From IMG/VR virus record IMGVR_UViG_3300031134_000641: a DNA stretch of 48,601 nucleotides. The stretch is one strand, 5' to 3'. Positions within the stretch are counted from its first letter, which is position 1. Every line of letters begins with the position of its first letter. A model generated the notes under the pieces. That model had not been told where the DNA came from, searched no databases, and was given only the letters and a program-made list of their open reading frames with translations. The position numbers were made by a program, and so were the translations under genes. This document shows, one piece after another, positions 4,189-32,060 of the stretch. This DNA comes from an uncultured virus (IMG/VR IMGVR_UViG_3300031134_000641). Its lineage: Duplodnaviria > Heunggongvirae > Uroviricota > Caudoviricetes.

Positions 4189-4248
4189 GCACATACAAGT
4201 GTGGCCCTGAACTAGAAACTTAGTTCAGGGCCACACTTGTACGTGCTT
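4187..4248. terminator. Long hairpin between convergent genes (bidirectional terminator)
   Basis: ~28-bp arms with one mismatch, loop gaaact. Core 4199-4236 is the exact reverse complement of 14130-14167. Confidence 0.8.
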
Positions 4249-13395: not shown

Positions 13396-14124
13396 ATGAC
13401 AAGTCATACACCTATTGCCTTAGGTCATGGTAAATTTTGCTATTCTGGACCCAACTGTCGGATTCACGGCAAGAAAAACTCTTTTGATAGCTTAACAGAT
13501 GTTTTTAATAGGGTAGATGCGGAGTTTCCCGCAGTTACAGAAAAATCTGAAACCACTACTGTACAATTTGAGAAAGAAGCGAAAGCCTTTTTTAAAACAC
13601 TTTCGCCTAACGAGAAATATGCAATTGCTAAGTACTCAGACAAGAACGGTTCTATCCGGGTAAACCGAACCTTAGATCAGAATGCAAAAATACATGATCC
13701 TGAGGTTATCCGGATGGTTACGGACCTGGATTCGTCCTTCCAGAAGCAGCAGGATGGCGCTCAGCGAACTTTATACCGTGGGGTGGAGAACTTACCGCTC
13801 TCATGGGCTGAGGACCTTAGAAAGGGTTCTACAGTTACTAGCCTAAGTTACATGTCAACTAGCTTGAACCCTCACAAAGCTTTTGAGTTTACATCAAGGG
13901 AAAAGCCTATTCTTTTCAAAATAGACTCCGGCAGAGGCTTGCCTATTTTAGTTCACGAAAATGAGTTTGAGATACTTCTCCCTCGCAAACAAAGCTACCA
14001 GGTAGTTAGCATTGAAGAAAATATTGCTGTTAATGCCTACAGCCCCAACCATGACGTGGGCATAAATACAAGCGGCTTGAAAACCAGACATGGTGTCATG
14101 TTGGTTACGCTTAAAGCCTTATAA
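13396..14124 (+). CDS. ADP-ribosyltransferase (R-S-E, VIP2/C3-like) with N-terminal Cys/His tag, ART1
   Basis: LYRG, YMSTS, ENEFEILLPR; tag CYSGPNCRIHG. Confidence 0.88.
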   Translation: MTSHTPIALGHGKFCYSGPNCRIHGKKNSFDSLTDVFNRVDAEFPAVTEKSETTTVQFEKEAKAFFKTLSPNEKYAIAKYSDKNGSIRVNRTLDQNAKIHDPEVIRMVTDLDSSFQKQQDGAQRTLYRGVENLPLSWAEDLRKGSTVTSLSYMSTSLNPHKAFEFTSREKPILFKIDSGRGLPILVHENEFEILLPRKQSYQVVSIEENIAVNAYSPNHDVGINTSGLKTRHGVMLVTLKAL

Positions 14125-14127
14125 AAG

Positions 14128-14169
14128 AGGTGTGGCCCTGAACTAAGTTTCTAGTTCAGGGCCACACCT
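14128..14169. terminator. Bidirectional terminator hairpin
   Basis: aggtgtggccctgaacta-agtttc-tagttcagggccacacct between convergent genes. Confidence 0.85.
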
Positions 14170-15849: not shown

Positions 15850-16737
15850 ATGAAACGCTTTCCACGAATAGCTGTAGGTACAAACACAGCAGGTAACACA
15901 ATGTACTGCTATGCAGGTCCAGAATGTCGTCTACATGGCTCTCAGGCGGCCTCTGCGGCCTTTGACAAGCGAATACAAGTGCTTCAGTCGGATCTCATTA
16001 AAACTCCTTTAGAACGGCTCCTACCTGACCGCACACTTGTACGCAGAGGTCTGAACGGACCAGATAGCACTGACAAAGTTATGGCCCTTACAAAAGAGGG
16101 CCATGACTGGCGTAGCAAGCTTACAGAAGATGAAATAGAAGAAATAGAAAACTACCGCAACACCGGTTTTGACTATATCAACGAATACCTGAACTTTCCA
16201 TCTACAAAACAAGGCTTGTCCAACGAAGGTATAGACAGTCGCATCTCTGAGATTGACTCAGCACTAGCAAAAGCGACTCCACCAGTAGAGCCACGCTTAC
16301 TGTATCGCTCTTTTAAGGTACCCGGCCTGGGAAAGAAAGTCAAGGATGCTAAAGCCGTAGCGAAATACATTGACGAAAACTTCACACCAGGAACAAAATT
16401 AAAATGGAATGCATTTCTTTCTACTAGCCTAGACTCCGACTTGATGGTTTATCACACATCACGTCGGGAAAACCTTGTCATCTTTGAAATCATCTCTGCA
16501 AGAGGTGCGATTGTTCACACCGAAAATAGTCGTCCCGGCTGGTCAGCCAAGGATGAAGAAAAAGAAGTTCTTATCCCACGTGGGAGCACAATGAGAGTAG
16601 CAAATGTGCTCAAAAATGTTAGCTATGAGACAACACACGCTGAAGGGGTTACCTCACCTGAAAATCCTTTCGCCGCCTATATGAAACCTAAGCCCAGAAG
16701 AAGATTCACTGTTGTCCAGCTAGTTGATGAGAGTTAA
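15850..16737 (+). CDS. ADP-ribosyltransferase (R-S-E type) with N-terminal Cys/His tag, ART2
   Basis: INEYL, LYRS, FLSTSL, EEKEVLIPRG; tag CYAGPECRLHG. Confidence 0.85.
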   Translation: MKRFPRIAVGTNTAGNTMYCYAGPECRLHGSQAASAAFDKRIQVLQSDLIKTPLERLLPDRTLVRRGLNGPDSTDKVMALTKEGHDWRSKLTEDEIEEIENYRNTGFDYINEYLNFPSTKQGLSNEGIDSRISEIDSALAKATPPVEPRLLYRSFKVPGLGKKVKDAKAVAKYIDENFTPGTKLKWNAFLSTSLDSDLMVYHTSRRENLVIFEIISARGAIVHTENSRPGWSAKDEEKEVLIPRGSTMRVANVLKNVSYETTHAEGVTSPENPFAAYMKPKPRRRFTVVQLVDES

Positions 16738-18152: not shown

Positions 18153-18220
18153 TGCAACCTTCCTTGCAAACGTAAGGCAGTTCTGCATTTACGTTCATGA
18201 AATGACTAGGCTACCACATT

Positions 18221-19024
18221 TTAGAAAATACGAGGCAAAGAGTCGGCTTCAGTAATAAGGTCTTCATCTGAGTATGTGCGTGGCTCTATTTTAGTCCATT
18301 GCCCATCATTCCAGGATAAAGCACTATCCCACGGCGAAATACTACGCCTCCACTGAAGTTTCTCTGTAAGTTCACCTGTCTCAGGGTTCTTTCTAGTGTA
18401 ATGAAGAATCTGGCAGTTGCTCATCTTGTAAGCTTCGTCATCATCCATTTCCTCCCACTGAAGAGGAGTCATTCGTTCAATGACGAACTGTGCAGTGCGA
18501 ATCATCTCCCCATGAACAACCGCAATGACTTTGCCGTGTCCTGACTGTCTGTGTAGGGTGTCAAGGATATCCTCAAAGCGAAGTCTGACACCAGCTGCTA
18601 ATGATTCGCCGCCTGTAGGGCACCAATACCATTCACTTAGAGCGCGTGAAGCCAGGTTTCTTTTGTAGAAAGTGTCACGCTCTTTGATGGTTGCCGTTCC
18701 GAACTCGCCCCAGTCGCGTTCACGCCAACGGTCATCACGAATCCAATTACCTCCAAGACGTAGGTGCCCTGCTGTCTCTAGCGTACGAAGATGTGGAGAA
18801 ACATAATAATCGGAGAACTCTGCTAGCTCGTGCTCTCTGAGCCATTCTCCTGCTTTCTCTGCCTGCTGCACGCCTTTCTCCGTTAGACGCATGCGAGAGT
18901 CATGTCTACTAGAAAAGTTTGTGGGGAACTCGTAGTTCTCGGTATCAAGTTTGTTCTGCTTCTGAACGATGTTAGCTTCTGACTCACCATGGCGGACAAG
19001 CACTAGATCAATTGGCATTACCAT
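18221..19024 (-). CDS. Histidine phosphatase / phosphoglycerate mutase family
   Basis: LVRHGES, SPHLRT, RERDWG, GGES, VVHG. Start at ATG 19024 with a GAGGAG SD. Confidence 0.92.
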   Translation of the reverse strand: MVMPIDLVLVRHGESEANIVQKQNKLDTENYEFPTNFSSRHDSRMRLTEKGVQQAEKAGEWLREHELAEFSDYYVSPHLRTLETAGHLRLGGNWIRDDRWRERDWGEFGTATIKERDTFYKRNLASRALSEWYWCPTGGESLAAGVRLRFEDILDTLHRQSGHGKVIAVVHGEMIRTAQFVIERMTPLQWEEMDDDEAYKMSNCQILHYTRKNPETGELTEKLQWRRSISPWDSALSWNDGQWTKIEPRTYSDEDLITEADSLPRIF

Positions 19025-19151
19025 ATTGTCTCCTCTTTGTTTGCTTTCTTTATCTGTATACCTCAACTATAGCACTTATATGCGCGAATACCTAAAAAGA
19101 TTACCGATAGTAGTCAGGTAACCTACGACCACTTATTATGGAGAGCACAAT

Positions 19152-19613
19152 ATGTTGAGAAAAAAGCTAGCAGTAAGTCTTACAGTTGGAGCAAGCATGG
19201 CAATGCTTCTTGCTGGTTGCGCATCAGCTGAAACACAGCCTGAGAGGACAATCTCTAGTAAGCCAACGCAGTCTTCTACTCCTTCGGCTGAAGCGTCCTC
19301 TTCTCCATCGCCAACAACCAATGCTAAAGCTCAAGAGTTTGCCACTAAGACAGTAAACCTTGTGTGCGGTTTGACAGAAAAAGATGCTATCTCAGCTGAG
19401 GATGTACAACAGTTCCGCGATTTCTCTGCCGAAATTAGAACAGGCGCTGCCGAGTTCGGTGGGCAGGAGATAGCCAACCAAACAGCAGATAGTATCAACA
19501 GCTACGCTGATACATTAGCAACTATTGTTGACCAACCTTTGAATGCTGAAGCTAAAGCAAGCCTAGTAGAAACATGTGAATCAGCTCAACAGGAGTTTGG
19601 ACCTACCGAGTAA
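19152..19613 (+). CDS. Lipoprotein of unknown function
   Basis: Lipobox LLAGC, S/P/T-rich linker, two Cys in the mature domain. Confidence 0.8.
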   Translation: MLRKKLAVSLTVGASMAMLLAGCASAETQPERTISSKPTQSSTPSAEASSSPSPTTNAKAQEFATKTVNLVCGLTEKDAISAEDVQQFRDFSAEIRTGAAEFGGQEIANQTADSINSYADTLATIVDQPLNAEAKASLVETCESAQQEFGPTE

Positions 19614-19625
19614 TTTTTGTTCTGT

Positions 19626-19672
19626 AAAAGCTTTGTTTGAGTACTAGTATAATGTACTCAAACAAAGCTTTT
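19626..19672. terminator. 19-bp-arm hairpin with T-tract; TATAAT in the loop
   Basis: aaaagctttgtttgagtac-tagtataat-gtactcaaacaaagctttt. Confidence 0.7.
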
Positions 19673-19713
19673 TTCATTTCTTCAAAATTTTTAGAAAAAG
19701 TTTGAAGAAAAAC

Positions 19714-19743
19714 TTGCACTAAGCTTATGTTGTGTGTTATAGT
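19714..19743 (+). promoter_or_regulatory. SigA-type promoter of the large ncRNA
   Basis: TTGCAC-N18-TATAGT with TGn extension. Confidence 0.65.
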
Positions 19744-19749
19744 TGTCTT

Positions 19750-20715
19750 ACAGGCAAGCGGAACAGCTTGCCAAGGAATTTTTAAAACTAAACAGCGCTT
19801 AGGGATCGGAAAGAGTCCTCACGTTAACCGTAAAGGTGTCATGAAAACGAAGTAGTGATGTGAGAACAGAGTACCGGTCGCAGGTAATGAAATGAACTTA
19901 CGGTTCATTGATTGCTCTCATTGAGAACAGGTCACAAAGGTTTTTAACTCAAAACCATTACCCATAAAGCTTCTTGGTTTATGTTCGGAGTAATTACCAA
20001 CATATTGGATGCGAGCGACGGCTCGTTCACCAGAAAATTGAATGCCTCTTTATCATAGGGGTCCGGTAGCTTCGGATGAATGTAGCTCAATGCTGCTTCA
20101 TCTGATGAGCCAGACCCCGAAAAATTGAGAATTTCGGTTACCAAGATTAGACAAGGGGAAGCGACGGCCAACCCGAGAGTGTCACCTAAGAATCCTTGCT
20201 GACCAGCTTGGGGGATAAGGTACATGAATTAGTTCGTTGAACTGAGCTTAACGCCTGCTCTCTCCACAGGGCTACCGCTTAAAGGGAGAATAGATAACAG
20301 CTGAGGTGCCTCCTCAGGGTTTAGCTACACGTGATGGTGGATTTATGGTGCGGAGCAGCCGAAAGCTTCGTTCAAGGGAAGAAAATCTCTTGCACTCGCA
20401 ATTTTTAAATGGCACAACGAAGTGTCCTAGACTTCCGGGGGTAGCTCCTCTGGAACTAGCAGTGGCTGAACAACTACTCGTCGGAGGGTTGTAAAGCACA
20501 TGCATAGTTAACGCTAATGCAACAACAGGGACCAAACTGGTTGAGTGTTGCAAGTAGTAGCTGGTATCGCCAGCAAGTTAACTAGGGTGGCCCCAATGCA
20601 TGGTCTGGTGTTAATACGTCAACTTTAATCAGTCAACGTCTGGCACACTGGTAAAGGTAATCAATCCTTTCTGCACTAAACTTATGAAAACCCTCAGCAT
20701 TTGCTGGGGGTTTTC
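19750..20715 (+). ncRNA. Large structured non-coding RNA (~0.96 kb), possibly GOLLD/ROOL class or new
   Basis: No credible ORF; own promoter and terminator; many hairpins (19753-19772, 19891-19909, 20058-20118, 20301-20317, 20427-20459, 20560-20574, 20653-20670). Family not verified. Confidence 0.75.
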
Positions 20716-20720
20716 TTTTT
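20686..20720 (+). terminator. Intrinsic terminator of the ncRNA
   Basis: gaaaaccctcagca-tt-tgctgggggttttc followed by ttttt. Confidence 0.85.
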
Positions 20721-20850
20721 GCCTGCAATAAACGTGCACTAAGTGCATATTTTGGCCGATATGTACACGGTACGTAAAACAGACAAAGAAACTTCAACTG
20801 TGGCAAAGGAGCTTTTATGGAGCTTCTACACCAACTAACTTGAAGGAAAA

Positions 20851-22491
20851 ATGACTGACACTACAATAAAGCCAGCTAAATCTGCTGAGCCTTCTTTTGA
20901 TATATTCTACAACCATCGCAAGCAGCTTTTTGCTATACTCGCAGCACTAATGACTGTTATGCTGCTTTCTGCGCTAGACCAGATGATTTTCTCTACCGCA
21001 CTCCCCACAATAGTTGGTGAGCTTGATGGTGTAGACCACATGCTTTGGGTTACAACAGCGTATATCCTTGCTGCAACAATAGTCATGCCTCTCTACGGTA
21101 AAGTAAGCGACTTAATCGGACGAAAAACTTTACTTTTAATGGGTATAGCTATTTTCATGGTCGGCTCAATAGTCGGTGGTCTTGCTCAAGATATGACCTT
21201 GCTTATTGTGGGTAGAGCAATCCAAGGAATCGGTGGCGGTGGCCTTATGATTCTATCCCAGGCAGTGATTGCAGATGTTATACCTCTACGTCAACGAGGT
21301 AAATACATGGGACTCATTGGCGCTGTGTTTGCTCTGTCCAGCGTGCTAGGTCCTATACTTGGTGGCTGGTTTACAGAAGGAATTGGATGGCGTTGGGCGT
21401 TCTGGCTCAACATACCTTTGGGTGTAATAGCTTTGGTCGTTGCTGCAATTTGGTTGAAAACCCCGCACACTTCCTCCAAAAACAAGTTTGACATACTCGG
21501 CACGATTACAATGGCTGTCAGTGTAAGCTCTCTCGTCTTGTTCACATCCTGGGGTGGAACCGAATATGACTGGAATTCAACAATCATATTGAGTCTAATT
21601 GCCGTCTTCGTAGTATTCACTGGCCTGTTCATTATTGCTGAGCTAAAAGCTTCAGACCCCATCATTCCCCTACGCCTATTTAAGGATAGAAACTTTAGTC
21701 TAGCTGCCGGTGCTGGGTTGCTTGTTGGAATTGGCATGTTCGGTGCTTTAGCTTACTTGCCAACATATCTACAAATGGTCTACAGCCTAGGGGCAACCAA
21801 TTCAGGTCTCCTTCTTTTGCCTATGATGGCAGGGTTGATGTTTGCCTCTGTTGTCTCAGGCCAGATTGTCTCTAGGACAGGTAACTACAAATGGTTACCT
21901 GTGGTTGGCTTTGTCCTTATTGGCTTTGCGCTGTTCTGTTTCTCAACAATGCAGGTAGATACTCCTCTGTGGCAGACAAGCCTGTATATGGTAGTGATGG
22001 GGCTAGGTATAGGTTCTGCTATGCAAATTCTTGTACTTATCATTCAAAACTCAGTTTCTCATGACGAAGTCGGTACAGCTACAGCAACTAACAACTTCTT
22101 CCGTGAAATAGGTGCTTCGCTAGGAGGAGCTTTCGTTGGTGGTTTGTTCTCACACAAACTAGGAGAACTCTTGAGAGAGAATCTTCCTACTAACGCTGTT
22201 CCTGGTGGTGACACAAATGCTTTGACACCAGATGTAGTTAGTGGACTTCCAGACCAGATCCATGATATAATTATTGCAGCTTACAACAGTGCTTTGACCC
22301 CTGTATTTGCGTATATGATTCCTGTATTCGTAGTTGGTGTCGTAGCCCTGATTTTCGTGAAACAGAAAAATATATCTGGTGACAAACAAGAGTTAGCTGA
22401 CGAAAATAGTACTTCTTCAACTGATATTGTATTCTCACGCGCGGAACGTAGGCTCAATAAAAAAGAGCTTAAAACTGTCAAAAGCCTGTAA
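20851..22491 (+). CDS. MFS drug:H+ antiporter, DHA2 (EmrB/QacA) family
   Basis: ~14 TM; LDQMIFSTALP, motif A GKVSDLIGRK, GRAIQGIGGG, GPILGG, GWRWAFWLNIPLG. Confidence 0.95.
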   Translation: MTDTTIKPAKSAEPSFDIFYNHRKQLFAILAALMTVMLLSALDQMIFSTALPTIVGELDGVDHMLWVTTAYILAATIVMPLYGKVSDLIGRKTLLLMGIAIFMVGSIVGGLAQDMTLLIVGRAIQGIGGGGLMILSQAVIADVIPLRQRGKYMGLIGAVFALSSVLGPILGGWFTEGIGWRWAFWLNIPLGVIALVVAAIWLKTPHTSSKNKFDILGTITMAVSVSSLVLFTSWGGTEYDWNSTIILSLIAVFVVFTGLFIIAELKASDPIIPLRLFKDRNFSLAAGAGLLVGIGMFGALAYLPTYLQMVYSLGATNSGLLLLPMMAGLMFASVVSGQIVSRTGNYKWLPVVGFVLIGFALFCFSTMQVDTPLWQTSLYMVVMGLGIGSAMQILVLIIQNSVSHDEVGTATATNNFFREIGASLGGAFVGGLFSHKLGELLRENLPTNAVPGGDTNALTPDVVSGLPDQIHDIIIAAYNSALTPVFAYMIPVFVVGVVALIFVKQKNISGDKQELADENSTSSTDIVFSRAERRLNKKELKTVKSL

Positions 22492-22549
22492 TAAACTGCA
22501 ATAAACCGATAGTTTATGTTCTACCGCCCTCTACCTTAAAGTTAGAAGT

Positions 22550-23284
22550 ATGCCTTACACTAAATCATCCTTAAGAAAAAATGTAATTGTCGCATCTGCC
22601 TTAGTAGCTGTTATCTCCTACGGGGCAACTAGCACCGCTGTTGCTAACCCTACAGTAACTCCTTACGATTCAGGCGTTGGTTTTCCTCAAACTGAGTCAC
22701 TATACCTTCCAGTAGCAAACACACAGACTCTAGTTGTTTCTTCTGATGTTCAGTCTCCTGATGTTAGCCGAGATGGTTTCTCTGCTACAGACCCTCAGGT
22801 TCTTGCTGCTATTAAGGCTGAAGAAGAACGCGTGGCCGCTGAGAAAGCTGCCGCTGAAGCAGCTGCTCTTAAAGCCGCTGAAGACGCCAAAGCAGCTGCG
22901 GAAGCTGCCGCAAAGCTGAAGTCTAACTCCAAGAGCGGTAGCTCTAGCTCTGTAGCTCCTGCTCCTTCTTTCACACCCGATCCAGGTAGTGCACAGGCAT
23001 ATGCTCAGACAGCTGTTGCAGCTAGAGGCTGGTCAACGGCAGATTACAACTGCCTTGTGTCGCTGTGGAACAAAGAGTCAGGTTGGAGAGCCAACGCTAA
23101 CAACCCTTCTTCTGGCGCTTATGGTATTCCTCAGGCCCTTCCTGGCTCAAAGATGGCATCAGCTGGTGCTGACTGGCAAACTAACGCCAACACTCAGATT
23201 GAGTGGGGCTTAGGATACATTGCTGGCCGTTACGGCACCCCTTGCGGTGCTTGGGGTCACTCTGTTTCAAATAATTGGTACTGA
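22550..23284 (+). CDS. Secreted lytic transglycosylase-like protein (actinobacterial type)
   Basis: Signal/TM, Ala/Glu/Lys coil, LWNKESGW, GAYGIPQALPGSKM, YIAGRYGTPC. Confidence 0.9.
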   Translation: MPYTKSSLRKNVIVASALVAVISYGATSTAVANPTVTPYDSGVGFPQTESLYLPVANTQTLVVSSDVQSPDVSRDGFSATDPQVLAAIKAEEERVAAEKAAAEAAALKAAEDAKAAAEAAAKLKSNSKSGSSSSVAPAPSFTPDPGSAQAYAQTAVAARGWSTADYNCLVSLWNKESGWRANANNPSSGAYGIPQALPGSKMASAGADWQTNANTQIEWGLGYIAGRYGTPCGAWGHSVSNNWY

Positions 23285-23301
23285 TTCTGTCAAAAAGCTT
23301 G

Positions 23302-23324
23302 CTAATACTCACAATGAGTGTTAG
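23302..23324. promoter_or_regulatory. Putative NrtR operator 1, overlapping a SigA-type promoter
   Basis: Palindrome ctaatactcacaatgagtgttag (CT-N7-AG core), within TTGCTA(23299)-N17-TAGTAT(23322). Confidence 0.7.
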
Positions 23325-23368
23325 TATAGTAGTAACAAGACAAACACAGACAGATTGAAGGAACCAAA

Positions 23369-23839
23369 ATGGTTTTAACAGATGAATACGTCGCAATGCT
23401 AGCTGTAGAAGGTAACGGCGCAGTTCAGGCCGAACTGCCTGAAGGCAAGCCTTTGTTCACAGTGCTAGCTGGACCCATCAAGTATTGGTGGGGAAGAATG
23501 GACACTGATGAGTTCAAGGAGTACACAACATGGCGTGAAGCTGTGCGAGTTGCGCTCATCAAGCAAGGCCATCTGGTTTATTCACCTCACCGAGCTTGGA
23601 ATGGTGCATGGCACGAATCAGCCCAGCTAGTCAATGACATGGCAATCATGCAGGCAGACGCGCTCATCGTAGTTACTCCTGAGGGAATTCCTGCTGAAGG
23701 AACAGACGCAGAGATTGAAGTGGCGAAAGCTCACAATCGTCCAATCATCATGGCACCTCCTGGAGGACGAGAGGCAATTCAGAAGTTGGTGGACGCAATT
23801 CGTGATCTGCACGAAACTACAGAAGAAGCCGCAGCTTAA
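23369..23839 (+). CDS. Nucleoside 2-deoxyribosyltransferase-like (NDT-fold) protein
   Basis: LAGPI, VYSPH, DMAIMQADALIVV, GTDAEIEVA-x3-RPI pattern. Confidence 0.65.
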   Translation: MVLTDEYVAMLAVEGNGAVQAELPEGKPLFTVLAGPIKYWWGRMDTDEFKEYTTWREAVRVALIKQGHLVYSPHRAWNGAWHESAQLVNDMAIMQADALIVVTPEGIPAEGTDAEIEVAKAHNRPIIMAPPGGREAIQKLVDAIRDLHETTEEAAA

Positions 23840-23848
23840 CAGCGAAAC

Positions 23849-23889
23849 AAAGGTGGGATAGCATGCTACAAATGCTATCCCACCTTTTT
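23849..23889 (+). terminator. Intrinsic terminator
   Basis: aaaggtgggatagcat-N7-atgctatcccaccttt followed by tt. Confidence 0.8.
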
Positions 23890-23953
23890 GCGTTTGGGAA
23901 TATAAATCCTTTGCTCGTGGTTATCTCGACTCCGAAAAGAAAAAGAGGATAAA

Positions 23954-24259
23954 ATGACAGTAATCAATATCAACTCTGTAGAAGAACTACAAAAAGCAGT
24001 TGCAGATAACCCCACCTTACTTGTAGACTTTTGGGCAACCTGGTGTGGTCCATGTAGAGTGATGGGGCCAATCCTAGACAAAGTTTCCGAAGAGAAAAAT
24101 GTAGTAATTGCTAAAGTAGATGTTGACAGCAACCCAGAGCTTTCGCAGATGTTTAACGTCATGAGCATTCCAACATTGTATTCATTTAAAGACGGTGAAC
24201 CAGCTGGAAAAGTCATTGGTGCAGTACCCAAAAAAGTTGTGGAAGATCTAGTTAAATAA
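23954..24259 (+). CDS. trxA: Thioredoxin
   Basis: DFWATWCGPC; SIPT. Confidence 0.96.
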   Translation: MTVININSVEELQKAVADNPTLLVDFWATWCGPCRVMGPILDKVSEEKNVVIAKVDVDSNPELSQMFNVMSIPTLYSFKDGEPAGKVIGAVPKKVVEDLVK

Positions 24260-24328
24260 CTTGACTTTTTTTATTAGCATCTGCTAAAATAATTGTATTC
24301 TTAACCGTACAATTTAGAAGGTGCAAAT

Positions 24329-24580
24329 ATGTCAAAGTCCCGTCGTAAGTTCCTCTGCCTAGACTGCCGTATTGACACAGGAAAAATCCGTGAGCACTAC
24401 ATGCTAGTAGACAAAACATGGTTTGAGGTTCACACTTCCAACGTAGGCATGATGTGCATCGGATGTGTAGAAAACCGACTCGGTAGGACACTGGTCTCCT
24501 CTGACTTCAACGACAGCCACGTGAACAACCCTCGGTTATACGAAATGTCAGGGCGACTCCTCAGCAGGATTAAGTCATAA
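24329..24580 (+). CDS. Small Cys4 zinc-binding hypothetical protein
   Basis: CLDC...CIGCVENRLGR; own promoter TTGACT(24261)-N18-TAAAAT. Confidence 0.75.
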   Translation: MSKSRRKFLCLDCRIDTGKIREHYMLVDKTWFEVHTSNVGMMCIGCVENRLGRTLVSSDFNDSHVNNPRLYEMSGRLLSRIKS

Positions 24581-24635
24581 AACAAAAAGGTAAGGCCCTC
24601 ACAACATACTGTTGTGAGGGCCTTACCTTTTTGTT
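24581..24635. terminator. 26-bp-arm bidirectional terminator
   Basis: aacaaaaaggtaaggccctcacaaca-tac-tgttgtgagggccttacctttttgtt between convergent genes. Confidence 0.85.
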
Positions 24636-24638
24636 ACA

Positions 24639-25409
24639 CTAGCTCTTAAGGGAAGTTCTCAGGATAGCAGGGTGGAGCATTGACAAGTTACCTGACTCGT
24701 ACAGGTCAGCTGTTCGGCCTGTATCAAACTTGGACTCACCTTTAGTACCCACCGGAACTACGAAACCAGTTGTTGAAAGCACTTTGCGGCGGAAGTTAGC
24801 AGCATGTAGGCTCTCTCCCCAAACTGCTTCGTAGACACGGCGCAGATCAGAAAGAGTGAACTGCTCCTCAAGGAACACAGCGGCAAGAGGAGTGTACTCC
24901 AGCTTAGAAGCTGCTCGCTCTAGAGCATCCCTAATGATAAGCTCGTGGTCAAAGGCCAGGTTGATGTTCTCTTCATCATCAAAAAGGTCTTCAATAGCGA
25001 AGAAGTGAGCCTCAGCAGCATCATCTCCACCAACAGGAGTGGGGAGGTCTGGGATGAAAGCGATGTAGGCAGTTGAAATGATACGCATACGTGGGTCACG
25101 GCCAGGAGTAGAGTATGTCTTCAGCTGCTCAATGTAAACCTTGTCAATGGAGATACCTGTCTCCTCCACAAGCTCACGGACAGCGCCTTCATCAGCTGAC
25201 TCATCATGGTTGACAAAGCCTCCAGGAAGTGCCCAGTGATCCTTGTAGGGGAACCCACCACGCTTGATAAGCAAGACAGCTAGTTTACCATTACGGATGG
25301 TGAGAACTACGGTGTCGGCGGTGTAGCCAACTCCAGGACCGTACTTTGTAGGGTTGTAATTGGCAAGGAACTCAGCTTCCTCGGGTGAACTGGGAATGTA
25401 GTCAGACAA
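24639..25409 (-). CDS. nrtR: NrtR-family Nudix plus winged-HTH regulator
   Basis: WALPGGF, Nudix box AVRELVEETG, RDPRMR, LAFDH, FTLSDLRRVYE, NFRRK. Confidence 0.88.
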   Translation of the reverse strand: MSDYIPSSPEEAEFLANYNPTKYGPGVGYTADTVVLTIRNGKLAVLLIKRGGFPYKDHWALPGGFVNHDESADEGAVRELVEETGISIDKVYIEQLKTYSTPGRDPRMRIISTAYIAFIPDLPTPVGGDDAAEAHFFAIEDLFDDEENINLAFDHELIIRDALERAASKLEYTPLAAVFLEEQFTLSDLRRVYEAVWGESLHAANFRRKVLSTTGFVVPVGTKGESKFDTGRTADLYESGNLSMLHPAILRTSLKS

Positions 25410-25974
25410 TTGTTGCTCCTTCGTTTGTTAGTTCGTTTAGTGCGGCAGCACTGCGGTCGGGGTTGACTCCAGCGATAAATTTCTTCAGTACGTTTACCTT
25501 GAACCCTGCGGCGAGAGCATCTAACGCAGTTGCGCGAACACAGTGGTCAGTTGCGAGACCAACAATGTCTAGCTCGTCTACACCAGCTTCTTTAAGGAAG
25601 TCAGCTAGAAGCTCAGCGGTCTCTACTGTTTTGCCTTCAAAGCCGGAGTAAGCTGCTTCCCACTCGCCTTTGTGAACAATTGTAAGGTTAGGGAGGGTAT
25701 CTAGGACGCGCTGAAGGGTTTCGTGAATTTCGGAACCGTGGGTGTCTGCGGCGCAGTGCACAGGCCAGGTGTCAGCGTAATCAGGGGTCTCGCTCCAGTG
25801 ATGACCGGGCTTGATGTGCCAGTCTTGCGTTGCAACAATGTGCGAGTAGTCGCTTTTGAGGGCTTGAACATAGTATGCCAGGTCTCGGGCTACATTCTTG
25901 CCTCCAGTGACGGCAAGACTTCCGCCTTCAATGAAGTCATTCTGAACGTCAACTAGAATAAGTGCTTTAGTCAT
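25402..25974 (-). CDS. pncA: Nicotinamidase/pyrazinamidase
   Basis: VDVQNDF, GGSL, QDWH, WPVHC, AYSGF, GLATDHCVRATA. Confidence 0.93.
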   Translation of the reverse strand: MTKALILVDVQNDFIEGGSLAVTGGKNVARDLAYYVQALKSDYSHIVATQDWHIKPGHHWSETPDYADTWPVHCAADTHGSEIHETLQRVLDTLPNLTIVHKGEWEAAYSGFEGKTVETAELLADFLKEAGVDELDIVGLATDHCVRATALDALAAGFKVNVLKKFIAGVNPDRSAAALNELTNEGATIV

Positions 25975-25992
25975 TTCTACTCCTTGCTTTCT

Positions 25993-26013
25993 TAATTCTC
26001 ATTATGAGTATTA
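25993..26013. promoter_or_regulatory. Putative NrtR operator 2, upstream of pncA-nrtR
   Basis: Palindrome taattctcattatgagtatta (CT-N7-AG core), abutting the minus-strand -10 TATACT (26018-26013). Confidence 0.75.
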
Positions 26014-26086
26014 GTATAGCATACTTATCGGCTTTGAACAACAAAACGTGCAAAAAGAAAGGATTTAAAGAAAACATCAAAATTCT

Positions 26087-26115
26087 TTGACAACAACCGA
26101 TATTAGTGCTATAAT
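26087..26115 (+). promoter_or_regulatory. Consensus SigA promoter of tmRNA
   Basis: TTGACA-N17-TATAAT with TGn extension; CCGATA lies in the spacer. Confidence 0.85.
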
Positions 26116-26132
26116 TAAACAGTAACAAAAAT

Positions 26133-26488
26133 GGGAATGACCGGTTTCGACTGGCAGACGCGATTTATAGAAGCATGCAGAGACACGCTAGATAATCTCT
26201 CCAAAAAGTTTTAGCAAAAACAGACGCAAAACAGTCTAACTTCGCACTCGCTGCTTAAGCAGTGCGGGAAGTGCATGAAGCAGTTACACCTTCATGAAAC
26301 GCTTCCTCAAAAAGTGTAACTTACTTATTCACAGGTTTCCATGTGGACTAGGAAATTTTAGGAAACAAAGAATGTGTTCTGATGGGATGCACAAAGCAGA
26401 ACATTCTAAAACGACACCGCATCTAAGCATGTAGAAGGATAAAACAAAACCTGTTAGGACGGGGGTTCGATTCCCCCCATTTCCACCA
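26133..26488 (+). ncRNA. ssrA: tmRNA
   Basis: Acceptor GGGAATG/CATTTCC-ACCA with G3-U wobble; GGTTTCGAC; T-arm GGGGGTTCGATTCCCCC; tag frame ...AKQSNFALAA* at 26226-26258. Confidence 0.96.
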
Positions 26489-26490
26489 CA

Positions 26491-26531
26491 AACTGCCGTG
26501 AGATACACATTGCATGTATCTCACGGCAGTT
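26491..26531 (+). terminator. Hairpin after tmRNA
   Basis: aactgccgtgagataca-N7-tgtatctcacggcagtt. Confidence 0.7.
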
Positions 26532-26578
26532 CTTATGTATGAGAACAACCATCAAATAACTCTTGAAAGAAGAACAAC

Positions 26579-27661
26579 TTGACAACCGTACTGACACCGC
26601 CCGTATCTAAACCACTAAGAAAGACAGGGCCAAGCGAGTACACTGCTTTATCAAAACAAATTAAAGAAAACAACCTACTCAAAAGAGAAGTAGGCTTCTA
26701 CATCAAAACTTTTAGCTTCTGGGTTACATTCCTTATCGCTACTATCGTTGCATCAACTTTCATAGGAGACAGCTGGCTCCAGCTTATCCCTGCCGCGCTA
26801 CTAGGTGTTGGTACCACACAAATTGCATTCCTAGCTCACGAAGCTTCACACCGACAGATTTTCAACACAAACAAGCTAAACGACAAAGCAGGCCTAATCC
26901 TTGCAGACTTCTTTGCAGGCTTAAGTTACACATGGTGGATGACAAAGCACACACGTCACCACGCTAACCCAAACCATGTGGAAAAAGATCCTGACATTAA
27001 CATTCGTGTTCTTTCATTCACAGTAGACCAGGCTAAGGCTAAAACTGGACTCATGAAGGTCATCTCCAAAGGCCAAGGTTGGCTATTCTTCCCCATCCTA
27101 ACTCTGACTGTACTTGACCTGCTCATCTCCTCAGCAAGTGTTCTCTTCGGTAAAGAGAAAGTAAAAAACCGTGCTCTAGAGTTGACCTTATTCTTAGGGC
27201 ACTACGTCATCCTTGTCTCATTACCTTTCATCTTCTTAAGCCCTGGAATAGCAGCAGCTTTCATCGCCGTCCAAATGATGGTATTCGGATTCTACATGGG
27301 AATGGCATTTGCGCCTAACCACAAGGGAATGCCTGTACTAGCCAAAGACTCTAACGTGGACTTCCTAAGACGACAGGTGCTAACATCTCGCAACATCAAA
27401 GGAAGCTGGTTCACCGACAACTTCATGGGCGGACTAAACTACCAGATTGAGCATCACCTTTTCCCCAGCATGGCCCGCCCACAGCTGAGAGCAGCCCAGA
27501 AACTCACACAACAGTACTGTGAGGAAAAGAACATTCCTTACCTTGAAACAACTCTGCCTGACTCCTACAAGCAGGTTATTGTCTATCTGAACAAGGTTGG
27601 TCTAAAAGAAGTTGACCCATTTGATTGCCCAATGGTGTCTCAGTACCGTCGTCGTGACTGA
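26579..27661 (+). CDS. Membrane fatty-acid (acyl-CoA) desaturase
   Basis: His boxes HEASH, HTRHH and QIEHHLFP; TM segments; TTG start. Confidence 0.93.
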   Translation: MTTVLTPPVSKPLRKTGPSEYTALSKQIKENNLLKREVGFYIKTFSFWVTFLIATIVASTFIGDSWLQLIPAALLGVGTTQIAFLAHEASHRQIFNTNKLNDKAGLILADFFAGLSYTWWMTKHTRHHANPNHVEKDPDINIRVLSFTVDQAKAKTGLMKVISKGQGWLFFPILTLTVLDLLISSASVLFGKEKVKNRALELTLFLGHYVILVSLPFIFLSPGIAAAFIAVQMMVFGFYMGMAFAPNHKGMPVLAKDSNVDFLRRQVLTSRNIKGSWFTDNFMGGLNYQIEHHLFPSMARPQLRAAQKLTQQYCEEKNIPYLETTLPDSYKQVIVYLNKVGLKEVDPFDCPMVSQYRRRD

Positions 27662-27687: not shown

Positions 27688-28458
27688 ATGTCCAGAAATC
27701 GTTGCGAAGCTAAAGACCCGGCTAACTGCAAGTTCCACAGGCCGAAACTATTTCCTTTGCCTGCACCACCTTCCGCTGAAGAGCACTTCAACGAATCAAA
27801 AAAGTTTGAATTTGTTGTAAACGCGAACCAGAAGGAGGCGTTAGAGGGTTACCTAGACAACGACTATATGGATATGACACCTGTGCTATATGGCGCTAGC
27901 GACTATAAGAAGGACAAGTTTCTTAAACAAGCAGACTTAATACAGGAAGCTATTGAGACCTACGAGGCTGTCTCTGACAAGAAACCGAAAACAGTTTACA
28001 GGGCAACACGGCTTAAGGCTGGTCATAGTTTTAACAGCCCTGAAGAGATGAAAGACTTCGTAGAAAAGAACTTTAAACCAGGTTCTGTTATCACTACAGC
28101 TGGTTTCACATCAACAACAGTCAGACCTGAAGTTTTGTTTGACTTCCTCCCAGACGGCCACAATGATTACGTTATCAACAACCCCAAAAAAGAAATGTCA
28201 TCTAAACGCTACCATGAACTTATGGGTAGCGACGAGAGCCTAAACAACCTAGTCTATGAGATAAGCACTCCCTCTGGCGTGGCTGTATCATCTTTTGGTC
28301 ACAGCCACGCTACTAGAGAACAAGAGTACCTACTTGGTAGAAACAAGCGTTTCGTCATCAAAGAAGTATTACCCATCTCTAGACTAGATAATCCCGCAGA
28401 GCGCCCTTTCCGTAAGCACGCTCATGCTACCATCATTAAACTGGAAGAAATTGTTTAG
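27688..28458 (+). CDS. ADP-ribosyltransferase (R-S-E type) with N-terminal Cys/His tag, ART3
   Basis: VYRA, GFTSTT, REQEYLLGR; tag CEAKDPANCKFH. Confidence 0.8.
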   Translation: MSRNRCEAKDPANCKFHRPKLFPLPAPPSAEEHFNESKKFEFVVNANQKEALEGYLDNDYMDMTPVLYGASDYKKDKFLKQADLIQEAIETYEAVSDKKPKTVYRATRLKAGHSFNSPEEMKDFVEKNFKPGSVITTAGFTSTTVRPEVLFDFLPDGHNDYVINNPKKEMSSKRYHELMGSDESLNNLVYEISTPSGVAVSSFGHSHATREQEYLLGRNKRFVIKEVLPISRLDNPAERPFRKHAHATIIKLEEIV

Positions 28459-29539: not shown

Positions 29540-29626
29540 GGCATGGTGGCAGAGTCCGGCCGAATGCGCTTGCTTCGAAAGCTTGTAGGGGTCTTCCCCT
29601 CGGAGGTTCGAATCCTTCCCATGCCG
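29540..29626 (+). tRNA. tRNA-Ser(CGA)
   Basis: Acceptor GGCATGG/CCATGCC, discriminator G, long variable arm AGGGG-tctt-CCCCT, T-loop TTCGAAT, anticodon CGA at 29576-29578. Two U-U mismatches in the anticodon stem; CCA not encoded. Confidence 0.85.
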
Positions 29627-29687
29627 CAACCAAAATGTAACAAACTAATGTCTAATCTATTGAAAATGAAAGAGTGGTGAAAAAGTA

Positions 29688-30218
29688 ATGCAGTCTACAC
29701 TTGTACTCAACGCGTCCTATGAGCCGTTGTCTATTGTGTCTGGCCGTCGCGGGGTGAAGATGATCCTAAACGGGCGCGCTTCTTCACTTGATGACTCTGA
29801 AGTAGTTTTCAACTCTGAAGACATTTCCATACCGGTACCCTACGTTGTACTTTTGAACCGTTACGTCCGAAAGGACGCCTTCACGAAGAAGCCTCGCTTC
29901 TCCAGACGAGGTGTTCTTGTCCGTGACGGGTTCGCATGTACCTATTGTGGCAACTACGCTGACACAATTGACCACGTTATCCCTCGTATGGACGGTGGAG
30001 AATCCACTTACGAAAACTGTGTTGCAGCTTGTGGACCATGTAACCGTAAGAAGGGTCACAAGACTCTTAAGGAAATGGGTTGGAGCATAAACTTCAAGCC
30101 AACCGCTCCATCCTTGTTCACAACCATGCTTGGCAAAGCGCGTTCCAACGAACGTCAGCTTGAAGCATGGGGCAGGTACATATCCATGTTCCAGCCGGAA
30201 CTCGCTAAAAGCAACTAA
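29688..30218 (+). CDS. HNH endonuclease
   Basis: LVLNASYEPL, RDGFACTYCG, TIDHVIP, NCVAACGPCN. Confidence 0.92.
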   Translation: MQSTLVLNASYEPLSIVSGRRGVKMILNGRASSLDDSEVVFNSEDISIPVPYVVLLNRYVRKDAFTKKPRFSRRGVLVRDGFACTYCGNYADTIDHVIPRMDGGESTYENCVAACGPCNRKKGHKTLKEMGWSINFKPTAPSLFTTMLGKARSNERQLEAWGRYISMFQPELAKSN

Positions 30219-31374: not shown

Positions 31375-31451
31375 ACAACCTAAAGCTTCTGCGTTAAAAA
31401 AAGAAAGCATGCTATGATGAAACATGTCATGCTAAAGAAAAGGTGGAATGA

Positions 31452-31664
31452 ATGAAATCAAAAAACCTTGTTATCACAGCTAACGATGGTCAACATATGA
31501 GACAGTTAGCAGATGATTACATCTACATTGGCCGAGAAGTTGATGTGGACCCTCAGACTTTTAAAGTCACAGTTTTAGCTTTGCCTCGCTCATACAAGAA
31601 AAAGCGTGCAGCAGAAACAAAACTGGAATCTAGAAGGTCTAACTCAGATGAGGAATACAAATAA
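31452..31664 (+). CDS. Small hypothetical protein
   Basis: AGGTGG SD; 70 aa; co-oriented with its neighbours. Confidence 0.65.
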   Translation: MKSKNLVITANDGQHMRQLADDYIYIGREVDVDPQTFKVTVLALPRSYKKKRAAETKLESRRSNSDEEYK

Positions 31665-31691
31665 AAACTGAATAGAAAGGAAGGATATCTT

Positions 31692-31952
31692 ATGGTTGTT
31701 GAAGAGCGTAAGTATCCAGACAGTATTACAACAGACAATGGCAAGACCATTCGGCTGTCACAACTTAAAAAGAACAACAAAGTCCGTATTCACGGTCACA
31801 ACATAAAAGTGGGAGACATTCCACTAACTGCGGCGCAACTTAACTGCGGGCATGTCGTAAGAGGAATTGCTCTACAGCTAAACGATGTTGTGTTCTGTGA
31901 TAAAGATGAACACCGAGAAGATACGTATGTCTCTCAAATTATATCTGGATGA
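31692..31952 (+). CDS. Small hypothetical protein, possible Zn site
   Basis: AAGGA SD; NCGH...FCDKDEH. Confidence 0.65.
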   Translation: MVVEERKYPDSITTDNGKTIRLSQLKKNNKVRIHGHNIKVGDIPLTAAQLNCGHVVRGIALQLNDVVFCDKDEHREDTYVSQIISG

Positions 31953-32060
31953 AAATCTTGTCCGATAAAAATTAGAGGGGAACACACCCTGTTAAAAGGA
32001 ACAGTGTTCCCCTCTAACAAAGCCACAAACTAACTCTTGCAAGGAAACTCTTAAACACAA

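What the first reader, a model, noticed from the sequence alone, without database searches (positions are those of the whole stretch)
19714..20720. ~960-nt ORF-free, highly structured RNA gene
Seen: the largest non-coding stretch in a dense window, bounded by a SigA-type promoter and an intrinsic terminator. It is tiled with hairpins, several containing G-U pairs on the + strand, e.g. ggcaagc/gcttgcc, ggggtc...gacccc, ttccggggg/cctctggaa, aaagg-taatcaat-ccttt. Established: giant ornate RNAs (GOLLD, ROOL) occur in phages and megaplasmids, often near tRNAs, and their function is unknown. I cannot assign the family by eye. An actinobacterial-element example of this length would be a divergent member or a new class.
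Basis: partly seen in the sequence, partly recalled or inferred. Interest (0 to 1): 0.75.

Follow-up and report, generated by a model that had tools for sequence, protein, structure and literature searches.

The report
Three-part noncoding RNA locus, manA-like end
The gene-free kilobase is a real, expressed and unusually well conserved non-coding RNA locus in an uncultured plant-surface bacterium, but it looks like a precursor of several RNAs, the last one a distant relative of the cage-forming manA RNA, and not like one giant GOLLD- or ROOL-type RNA.

Summary
The observation largely holds. Window 19614-20850 is the largest ORF-free gap. It ends in a strong intrinsic terminator, and the whole stretch folds far better than shuffles (z -6.6). 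The promoter is seen by eye only.

It is a real RNA locus. Two metatranscriptome runs hold contigs of it. A related strain differs by 1.4% here, against about 4.6% in the flanking genes.

It matches no GOLLD, ROOL, OLE, HEARO, intron or RNase P model. Only the last ~250 nt (20433-20679) match an Rfam family: manA, at 39 bits, E 3e-8, below the family cut-off of 55.2. True marine manA RNAs score 152-197 bits.

The RNA contigs argue against one 960-nt molecule:
- A 239-nt middle piece (20161-20399) is about 10-20 times deeper than the 5' part.
- One contig wraps round the manA-like piece (20675 joined back to 20432). This marks discrete ends, and perhaps a circle.

My reading is a precursor cut into separate stable RNAs. 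I found no homologues outside near-identical strains, so covariation could not be tested. The 5' and middle parts remain unclassified.

The parts
19626..19672 (+). Terminator hairpin of the upstream 153-aa lipoprotein-like gene (19152-19613). It isolates the RNA locus from upstream transcription.
   Evidence: Perfect 19-bp palindrome followed by a T run, read from the sequence. Picked up as inverted self-match and as spurious hairpin-family hits.
19714..19743 (+). Candidate promoter: TTGCAC (19714-19719), 18-nt spacer, TG-n-TATAGT (19735-19743). Predicted start near 19750.
   Evidence: By eye only; the consensus scan did not list it. The first RNA contigs begin at 19766 and 19780.
19715..19729 (+). 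Direct repeat copy 1, TGCACTAAGCTTATG, overlapping the -35 hexamer.
   Evidence: 14 of 15 identical to 20672-20686, spacing 957; all 3 TGCACTAA copies of the 48.6-kb window lie at this locus on one strand.
19750..20160 (+). Part D1 (~410 nt): strongly folded 5' part with no family match. Low RNA depth.
   Evidence: z -4.74, minimum-energy fold equals the centroid. No Rfam match at E<=10. RNA contigs 19766-19917, 19780-19931 and 20007-20157 at depth 2-3.5.
20161..20399 (+). Part D2 (239 nt): the most abundant RNA species of the locus. No family match and no thermodynamic fold signal.
   Evidence: RNA contigs 20173-20399 (depth 43.1, run X10) and 20161-20398 (depth 36.5, run X11), both stopping within 1 nt of each other while DNA run X8 continues. 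A sequencing-adapter loose end sits directly before 20173. z -0.26. Rfam on this part alone: only a 9.9-bit chance hit.
20400..20431 (+). 32-nt linker between D2 and D3, covered by no RNA contig.
   Evidence: tables 2 and 8. This is absence of cover only, so it is weak evidence.
20432..20679 (+). Part D3 (~246 nt): manA-like domain with a P1 hairpin, a closing or pseudoknot helix, the GUGGCUGAACAA junction and the GGUAAUCAAUCC hairpin. It carries an 86-nt insertion in the family's variable region.
   Evidence: cmscan RF01745, 20433-20679, 39.0 bits (cut-off 55.2), E 3.3e-8, model 1-192. The minimum-energy fold equals the centroid and reproduces the architecture, z -3.35. RNA contig 20432-20646 at depth 10.8, with a joint from 20675 back to 20432.
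20672..20686 (+). Direct repeat copy 2, TGCACTAAACTTATG, overlapping the 3' strand of the D3 closing helix and ending at the foot of the terminator.
20686..20720 (+). Intrinsic terminator of the RNA locus.
   Evidence: 13-bp stem, 7 G-C pairs, 4-nt loop, T run.
20734..20746 (+). Third TGCACTAA copy, here a perfect palindrome (TGCACT-A-AGTGCA), about 105 nt upstream of the MFS transporter gene. Possible operator.
   Evidence: the palindrome is read from the sequence.
20851..22491 (+). Downstream MFS transporter gene: neighbour, and possible cis target in the rival reading.
   Evidence: Pfam MFS_1, 7.8e-58. At most 60% identical to its best relatives, which are Microbacteriaceae.

Best explanation
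The gap holds a stand-alone non-coding transcription unit on the + strand, from about 19750 to the terminator at 20686-20720. It is best read as a three-part locus, not as one GOLLD- or ROOL-like molecule.

- D1 (19750-20160) is a strongly folded 5' part of no known family.
- D2 (20161-20399) is a very abundant RNA of no known family.
- D3 (20432-20679) is a distant relative of the manA RNA.

Shown: the locus is found as RNA. It evolves 3-4 times more slowly than its neighbours. D2 and D3 are much deeper than D1 and have recurring ends at domain borders.

Inferred: one primary transcript of about 970 nt is cut into separate stable RNAs. The linker and the terminator hairpin are removed.

Inferred by analogy only: D3 folds into the manA-type core, closed by the AGCAG/CUGC helix. 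Like the manA RNAs seen by cryo-EM, it then assembles into closed homo-oligomers through loop-loop contacts. It acts in trans, not as a switch for the transporter gene.

The role of D2 is open. Its depth approaches that of the tmRNA in one RNA run (36.5 against 13.7-113.7 in X11) and is lower in the other (43.1 against 79-243 in X10), which suggests a protein-bound or otherwise protected housekeeping-type RNA.
For: Expression:
- 20 of 24 listed public runs hold part of the stretch, and 7 of them are metatranscriptomes.
- In the two RNA runs laid, D2 has depth 43.1 and 36.5. D3 has 10.8 in one run. D1 has 2-3.5. Neighbouring mRNA contigs have 2-5. The tmRNA bins have 10-243.

Selection:
- A related strain (run X8) has 17 differences in 1215 nt over 19710-20925 (1.4%).
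- Six flanking coding pieces have 234 differences in 5141 nt (4.6%).
- The tmRNA stretch has 2 in 490 (table 8).

Structure-neutral variation:
- Of 7 substitutions visible in the locus, 4 lie in predicted helices. All 4 keep a pair (G-C to G-U twice, A-U to G-U, G-U to G-C), and 3 of these form a G-U pair that exists only on the + strand.
- The 1-nt deletion at 19779 would shift the frame of the 42-aa ORF.

Discrete products:
- Both RNA runs end D2 at 20398/20399. D2 starts at 20161 in one run, and next to an adapter at 20173 in the other.
- The X11 contig joins 20675 back to 20432. These are the borders of the manA-like domain, 20433-20679.

manA likeness:
- E 3.3e-8 over the full model.
- 39 of the 44 pairs printed are standard pairs.
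- The conserved GUG-CUGAA-AA, UAAAG, ACUUUA and GGUA..AAUCC elements are present.
- The P1 tip GGGGUAGCUCC is identical to that of 1 of 20 true marine manA RNAs.
- Two unrelated metagenome sequences that carry the same short motifs score nothing.

Precedent: a manA motif beside a tmRNA and tRNAs on an actinobacterial megaplasmid (PMC10832533, passages), and manA cages (bioRxiv 10.64898/2026.07.01.735769, passages).
Against: - I found no diverged homologue, so no covariation test supports any helix of D1 or D2. D3 rests on a single CM hit.
- D3 scores 39 bits. That is under the curated cut-off of 55.2 and far under true members at 152-197 bits. The hit is lost when the whole window is scanned.
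- D2 folds no better than shuffles (z -0.26).
- All read evidence comes from assembled contigs of two runs, not raw reads. Contigs cannot give strand or true ends. Depth is one figure per contig, and breaks can come from strain variants.
- The promoter did not pass the scan.
- No contig shows the full-length precursor. Separate promoters for D2 and D3 are therefore not excluded.
- Oligomer formation is pure analogy.
Confidence: 0.55

Rival explanations
1. One giant ornate RNA. The ~960-nt transcript functions as a single folded molecule comparable to GOLLD or ROOL, with the manA-like part as its 3' domain. The uneven contig depths would then be assembly or degradation artefacts.
For: A single plausible promoter and a single strong terminator bound the stretch. 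The whole stretch folds with z -6.64 and predicted long-range pairs between parts. Earlier notes of this scan describe multi-domain manA-type RNAs in archaeal viruses (unchecked leads).
Against: No Rfam match to GOLLD or ROOL at E<=10. Depth differs 10-20 fold between D1 and D2 in two runs from two studies. D3 has no contig in X10 while D2 has depth 43. No contig bridges 20158-20160 or 20400-20431. The joint 20675 to 20432 marks ends inside the supposed single RNA. In the full-length fold the long-range pairs are mostly absent from the centroid.
Confidence: 0.2
2. Cis-regulatory leader. The manA-like domain plus the terminator is a riboswitch-like attenuator controlling read-through into the MFS transporter gene. 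D1 and D2 would be a long leader.
For: manA was proposed as a cis-regulatory riboswitch candidate in 5' UTRs (PMC2864571, passages). D3 ends 10 nt before the terminator stem, on the same strand as the transporter gene 131 nt further on. The TGCACTAA motif is shared by the RNA promoter, the D3 end and the transporter's upstream region.
Against: The terminator does not overlap any D3 helix, so no obvious competing fold exists (sequence). A leader of ~970 nt would be extraordinary. Sub-fragments accumulate at 10.8-43.1 against 2-5 for neighbouring mRNA contigs; D2 nears the tmRNA's depth in one of the two RNA runs. No RNA contig spans 20676-20815. 3 of 20 true manA RNAs in viral contigs sit next to tRNA genes, not coding genes. 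The transporter has its own palindromic upstream site.
Confidence: 0.12
3. Non-functional remnant: a decayed gene or mobile-element scar that happens to be transcribed. The flanking 15-nt direct repeats would be the footprint of an insertion.
For: Direct repeats TGCACTAAGCTTATG and TGCACTAAACTTATG, 957 nt apart, bracket the locus. No homologue was found in any collection searched.
Against: The locus is 3-4 times more conserved than neighbouring coding genes, the opposite of a decaying remnant. There is no ORF with a Pfam match (0 of 7), no integrase or transposase, high RNA depth, and a significant manA-type hit. The repeats could equally be operator sites. A mobile origin would not exclude function.
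Confidence: 0.05

Closest known systems
manA RNA motif (Rfam RF01745; Weinberg et al. 2010, PMC2864571; cryo-EM assemblies in bioRxiv 10.64898/2026.07.01.735769)
   Same: D3 aligns to the full model (1-192) with E 3.3e-8. It has the P1 hairpin, the closing or pseudoknot helix (4 of 5 pairs, one of them flipped G-C to C-G), the GUG-CUGAA-AA junction, a P3 multi-branch, P4, and the GGUA..AAUCC hairpin. Its P1 tip is identical to one marine member.
   Different: It scores 39 bits against a cut-off of 55.2, and against 152-197 bits for 20 of 20 marine viral members. It has an 86-nt insertion where the model has two or three short hairpins. It comes from a terrestrial plant-surface organism with actinobacterial-type proteins, not from marine phage or gamma-proteobacteria. 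It sits at the 3' end of a ~1-kb non-coding unit with its own terminator, not directly in front of a gene or tRNA. Oligomer formation is untested.
GOLLD and ROOL (large ornate RNAs of phages and Lactobacillales; cryo-EM in PMC12286853, seen as search listing and abstract only)
   Same: Size class of the whole locus, absence of ORFs, own promoter and terminator, and a tmRNA and tRNA within 6-9 kb.
   Different: No match to either Rfam model at E<=10. The RNA contig evidence points to several shorter products, not one molecule.
manA motif beside tmRNA and tRNA genes on Bifidobacterium breve megaplasmid pMP7017 (PMC10832533, passages read)
   Same: An actinobacterial genetic element carrying a tmRNA, tRNA gene(s) and a transcribed manA-type RNA within a few kilobases. 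Here the tmRNA is at 26133-26488 and tRNA-Ser at 29540-29627.
   Different: There the motif is 178 bp and is reported alone. I could not fetch that record, so no sequence comparison was made. The window shows no conjugation or replication genes that would mark it as a plasmid.
Multi-domain manA-type RNAs in marine archaeal viruses
   Same: A manA-like module combined with further unclassified RNA domains in one ORF-free cassette.
   Different: There the manA-like part is the first half; here it is the last quarter. No shared sequence words with this window were found. Those notes are unchecked by me.

Membership tests
manA RNA (RF01745) | Covariance-model score at or above the curated gathering score (55.2 bits) | tested here: not met
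   39.0 bits. The hit is absent from the whole-window scans at gathering threshold and at E<=0.01. 20 of 20 marine viral members score 151.9-196.9 bits.
manA RNA (RF01745) | Statistically significant full-length match of sequence plus structure | tested here: met
   E 3.3e-8 for a 1.4-kb search of 4227 families, model positions 1-192. Two metagenome sequences with the same short motifs give no hit at E<=1.
manA RNA (RF01745) | Helices P1, P2, P2a, P3, P4, P4a and P5 formed | tested here: met
   In the printed alignment 39 of 44 pairs are standard. The losses are 1 pair in P2a, 1 in the pseudoknot and a 3-bp hairpin that is absent. An independent minimum-energy fold gives the same helices. Two further model hairpins (11 pairs) lie in the unprinted stretch, where D3 has 86 nt, and cannot be judged.
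manA RNA (RF01745) | Pseudoknot or closing helix GGGAG/CUCCC | tested here: inconclusive
   D3 has AGCAG/CUGC: 4 of 5 pairs, with one pair changed on both sides relative to the consensus. This helix is itself marked as uncertain in the original description (PMC2864571).
manA RNA (RF01745) | Conserved junction and loop nucleotides (GUGaCUGAAUAA, UAAgG, aCUguA, GGUA..AAUCC) | tested here: met
   D3 has GUGGCUGAACAA, UAAAG, ACUUUA and GGUAAUCAAUCC. In 20 marine members, GGGAGTGACTGAATAAACTT is invariant; D3 differs from it at several positions.
manA RNA (RF01745) | Position in the 5' UTR of a gene or next to tRNA genes | tested here: not met
   D3 is followed by its own terminator. The next gene starts 171 nt after D3, and the nearest tRNA gene is 8.9 kb away.
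manA RNA (RF01745) | Assembly into pentamer-based closed oligomers | not testable with these tools
   Known only from cryo-EM of other members (bioRxiv 10.64898/2026.07.01.735769).
GOLLD, ROOL, OLE, HEARO, RNase P RNA, group I and II introns | Match to the family's Rfam covariance model | tested here: not met
   None of these appears among matches up to E 10 in 19500-20900, or in D1 and D2 searched alone with the laxest filters.

The most novel reading that the evidence does not exclude
The manA-like module is cut out of the precursor and joined end to end into a ~246-nt circular RNA that builds RNA cages. The 239-nt middle RNA, nearly as deep as the tmRNA in one of the two RNA runs, is the founding member of a new class of abundant bacterial RNA. 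Together they would be a DNA-encoded, processed 'RNA operon' of a kind not described in bacteria. The evidence is one wrap-round contig (20675 + 2 letters + 20432, contig 274 nt for a 246-nt unit) in one metatranscriptome. A tandem copy in another strain, or template switching during library preparation, explains that contig as well.
Probability: 0.12. Interest if true: 0.85.

Novelty: new variant of a known kind. Interest (0 to 1): 0.6.

Why it matters
manA RNAs were for 15 years an orphan 'riboswitch candidate' of marine phages. A 2026 preprint reports that they build closed RNA cages of up to 60 subunits.

A distant manA-type module that is strongly expressed, stands behind its own promoter and ends in its own terminator argues that the class acts in trans. 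It would also extend the class to land bacteria of the actinobacterial type.

The module's partner RNAs (D1, D2) match nothing known, and D2 is the most abundant RNA species of the locus. If the parts are made from one precursor, the locus offers a natural system in which to ask what manA-type assemblies carry or bind.

The locus occurs in plant-surface, straw and plant samples of at least 17 studies, so material for experiments and for comparative analysis exists.

Tried and rejected
Homologue searches, all without a usable result:
- blastn of the 1007 nt against 50,697 phage records and 72,556 plasmid records: no match.
- 80 loci around relatives of the transporter gene: only chance matches of 28 nt or less.
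- 401 genomes of the class of a Saccharibacteria MAG: 1 of 401 matched, a 28-nt terminator-like stretch.
- 401 genomes of the order of Microbacterium: 6 of 401 gave 27-39-nt matches at E 0.001-0.005.
  - Three of these are one locus in related genomes.
  - The two I inspected (L103, L106) lie inside ORFs of 519 and 565 aa.
  - L101 and L102 were not inspected.
- Viral contigs: two DNA patterns gave 0 hits. Two window proteins had no relatives.
- Metagenome contigs: one pattern gave 14 stretches, none alike beyond the pattern.
  - 9 of the 14 were scanned with Rfam, with 0 hits.
  - The two that looked manA-like by eye were scanned alone, with 0 hits.
- RF01745 in 151 Actinomycetota genomes: 0 hits, but the 14 control genomes also gave 0, so this shows nothing.
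- The scan's own index: no look-alike.

Taxonomic placement failed:
- RecA is 58-67% identical to everything tried.
- DnaK finds nothing closer than 69% in 201 genomes of the order.
- The Saccharibacteria idea was dropped (DnaK 50-51%, DnaB 35-36%).
- The phage idea was dropped: no capsid or portal gene, and only a weak partial terminase-family match among 22 ORFs scanned.
- Plasmid look-ups of two proteins gave only 25-34% matches.
- tmRNA blastn gave only the conserved 3' end.
- The pMP7017 record could not be fetched.

Parts without RNA contig cover (20400-20431, 20676-20815) are not counted as evidence of absence.

Run X20 held only one 239-nt contig (19915-20153) and told nothing.

I considered that D1 or D2 are further manA-like repeats, and rejected it: only one manA hit at E<=10 and no internal repeats beyond short motifs.

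Full report
WHAT IS THERE

Window 19614-20850 lies between a 153-aa lipoprotein-like gene (19152-19613, with its own perfect hairpin terminator at 19626-19672) and an MFS transporter gene (20851-22491). At 1237 nt it is the largest ORF-free gap in the window; the next is 686 nt. Seven ORFs of 31-93 aa overlap it, and none matches Pfam at E<=1.

A strong intrinsic terminator sits at 20686-20715 on the + strand.

It is plausible by eye but did not pass the consensus scan.

FOLDING

| Stretch | Strand | Result |
|---|---|---|
| whole, 976 nt | + | -327.8 kcal/mol, z -6.64 |
| whole, 976 nt | - | -294.4 kcal/mol, z -5.80 |
| D1, 19750-20160 | + | z -4.74, minimum-energy fold equals centroid |
| D2, 20161-20399 | + | z -0.26 |
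| D3, 20432-20677 | + | z -3.35, minimum-energy fold equals centroid |

The minus strands give z -3.25, -0.18 and -3.50 for D1, D2 and D3. Thermodynamics alone therefore does not fix the strand.

FAMILY ASSIGNMENT

At gathering thresholds Rfam finds only the tmRNA (26133-26488) and tRNA-Ser (29540-29626) in the window.

With lax filters on 1.4 kb, one significant match appears: manA (RF01745) at 20433-20679 on the + strand. It scores 39.0 bits against a cut-off of 55.2, with E 3.3e-8, and covers the whole model.

- 39 of the 44 printed pairs are standard pairs.
- The conserved junction and loop elements are present.
- An 86-nt insertion sits where the model has its variable hairpins.
- The closing helix is AGCAG/CUGC instead of GGGAG/CUCCC.

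For scale, I collected manA RNAs from viral contigs with an 18-nt consensus motif. 20 of 20 loci scanned score 151.9-196.9 bits. D3 is therefore at best a very distant member. One of the 20 has the same P1 tip, GGGGUAGCUCC. Two metagenome sequences that share D3's short motifs give no hit, so the motifs alone do not produce the match.

The hit is lost when the whole window is scanned.

GOLLD, ROOL, OLE, HEARO, RNase P and group I/II introns give nothing at E<=10. D1 and D2 scanned alone also give nothing.

EXPRESSION AND SELECTION

20 of 24 listed public runs hold part of the stretch. Nine hold half or more of the sampled words, seven are metatranscriptomes, and 17 studies are involved. The labels are plant-surface, straw and plant metagenomes.

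I laid two RNA runs (X10, X11) and two others (X8, X20) on 18200-26600. All are assembled contigs, so strand, true ends and levels are only hinted at.

| Stretch | RNA contig depth |
|---|---|
| 20173-20399 (X10) | 43.1 |
| 20161-20398 (X11) | 36.5 |
| 20432-20646 (X11) | 10.8 |
| three D1 contigs | 2-3.5 |
| neighbouring mRNA pieces | 2-5 |
| tmRNA bins | 10-243 |

Both RNA runs stop D2 within 1 nt of each other, while the DNA-type run X8 continues. The tool rates that as a weak hint of a real end.

In X10 a sequencing adapter abuts 20173. From memory, it is the read-1 read-through adapter. In a dUTP library that would mean a recurrent 5' end of a + strand RNA.

X8 carries a colinear relative.

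| Stretch in X8 | Differences |
|---|---|
| 19710-20925 (RNA locus) | 17 in 1215 nt (1.4%) |
| six flanking coding pieces | 234 in 5141 nt (4.6%) |
| tmRNA stretch | 2 in 490 nt |

The locus therefore evolves like a functional RNA, not like spacer DNA or a dead gene.

Only 8 variant sites in the locus were printed; 282 rows of the table were cut. Of 7 substitutions, 4 lie in helices of the domain-wise folds, and all 4 keep the pair. Three of them create G-U pairs, which exist only on the + strand. The 1-nt deletion at 19779 breaks the 42-aa ORF.

THE JOINT

One X11 contig of 274 nt joins 20675 back to 20432, with two extra letters between. It therefore wraps round a 246-nt unit with about 28 nt of overlap. 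These are the borders of the manA-like domain. Three readings fit:
- a circular RNA;
- a tandem copy in that strain (X8's DNA is colinear, so not in all strains);
- reverse-transcriptase template switching between abundant linear molecules.

The first and third both imply discrete ends at the domain borders.

D3 has no contig in X10 while D2 has depth 43. D2 and D3 are therefore not one molecule in fixed ratio.

MY READING

This is a stand-alone unit whose ~970-nt primary transcript is cut into separate stable RNAs. D2 is the main product, and D3 is a trimmed manA-type RNA.

The transcript itself, the cuts and the trans-acting role are inferred. No contig shows the precursor.

By analogy with the cryo-EM preprint (passages), D3 would form closed oligomers. 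That is untested.

RIVALS

- A riboswitch-like leader of the transporter is less likely (0.12). The terminator overlaps no D3 helix, the leader would be ~970 nt, the fragments accumulate far above mRNA level, and 3 of 20 true manA RNAs sit beside tRNA genes, not coding genes.
- A decaying remnant is contradicted by the conservation.

HOST

No genome is held for the window.

| Protein | Identity to |
|---|---|
| DnaK, C-terminal part | 67-69% to 7 Microbacteriaceae genomes |
| DnaK, C-terminal part | 58-65% to other Actinomycetota |
| DnaK, C-terminal part | 50-51% to Saccharibacteria |
| DnaB | 43-45% to Actinomycetota, 35-36% to Saccharibacteria |
| RecA | 58-67% to everything tried |
| transporter | at most 60% to Microbacteriaceae |

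G+C is about 45%. The window carries DnaK, RecA, DnaB and a tmRNA. It has no capsid or portal gene and only a weak partial terminase-family match.

It is therefore an unplaced organism or large element with actinobacterial-type proteins. One search's tally included two genomes flagged as unpublished (G247, G343); nothing rests on them.

A published parallel is the Bifidobacterium breve megaplasmid pMP7017. It has a tmRNA, tRNA genes and a transcribed 178-bp manA motif within 2 kb (PMC10832533, passages). I could not fetch that record.

HOMOLOGUES

All searches for diverged relatives failed (listed under Tried and rejected). This is the main weakness of every structural claim here, above all for D1 and D2.

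UNEXPLAINED

TGCACTAAGCTTATG (19715-19729, over the -35 hexamer) recurs as TGCACTAAACTTATG at 20672-20686. That copy overlaps the 3' strand of the D3 closing helix. A third TGCACTAA lies in a perfect palindrome at 20734-20746, upstream of the transporter. These are the only three copies in 48.6 kb, all on one strand; chance expects 2.9 spread over both strands of the window. They may be operator sites of a shared regulator, or the footprint of an insertion.

VERDICT

This is a real and unusual non-coding RNA locus. I call it a new variant of a known kind: a distant manA-type module embedded in a longer unit with two unclassified parts. It is not a GOLLD or ROOL member. Interest 0.6.

Noticed in passing
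window 19715-19729, 20672-20686, 20734-20746: The only three TGCACTAA copies of the window cluster at this locus on one strand. Two form a 14-of-15 direct repeat 957 nt apart that brackets the RNA unit. The third is a perfect palindrome upstream of the transporter gene. They could be operator sites or an insertion footprint.
   Followed up: partly
window 31375-32060: Second largest ORF-free gap (686 nt), upstream of dnaB. No Rfam match at E<=0.01 in the whole-window scan.
   Followed up: no
window 26260-26455 (inside the tmRNA gene): RNA run X10 has a very deep contig (depth 1012) that skips 194 nt of the tmRNA, with only 22 nt on one side. It may be another organism's tmRNA or a processed form.
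   Followed up: no
window 13396-14124, 15850-16737, 27688-28458; 5852-6793, 34842-35918; 39349-40647; 29688-30218: Three ADP-ribosyltransferase-like genes, two polynucleotide kinase-phosphatase-like genes, a T4 Rnl1-type RNA ligase gene, and an HNH endonuclease gene right after tRNA-Ser. This is an RNA-damage-and-repair flavoured gene set in the same window as the RNA locus.
   Followed up: no
window 4213-4227 (-) and 14139-14153 (+): Identical 15-mers TGAACTAAGTTTCTA at two distant places, both close to gene ends.
   Followed up: no
L127 62-134, L108 59-132, L119 523-593: In 3 of 20 marine viral manA loci, a tRNA gene lies within about 10-50 nt downstream of the manA RNA on the same strand. 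This fits manA RNAs being made as processed stand-alone RNAs.
   Followed up: partly
whole window: Host puzzle: about 45% G+C. DnaK is 67-69% and the transporter at most 60% identical to Microbacteriaceae, yet DnaB is only 43-45% and RecA 65% identical to Microbacterium (62-67% across the Actinomycetota tried). No closer genome was found among the genomes sampled. Either a fast-evolving reduced relative or a large element of that family.
   Followed up: partly
window 19677-19710: AT-rich inverted repeat (CTTCAAA...TTTGAAG) directly upstream of the candidate -35 hexamer of the RNA unit.
   Followed up: no
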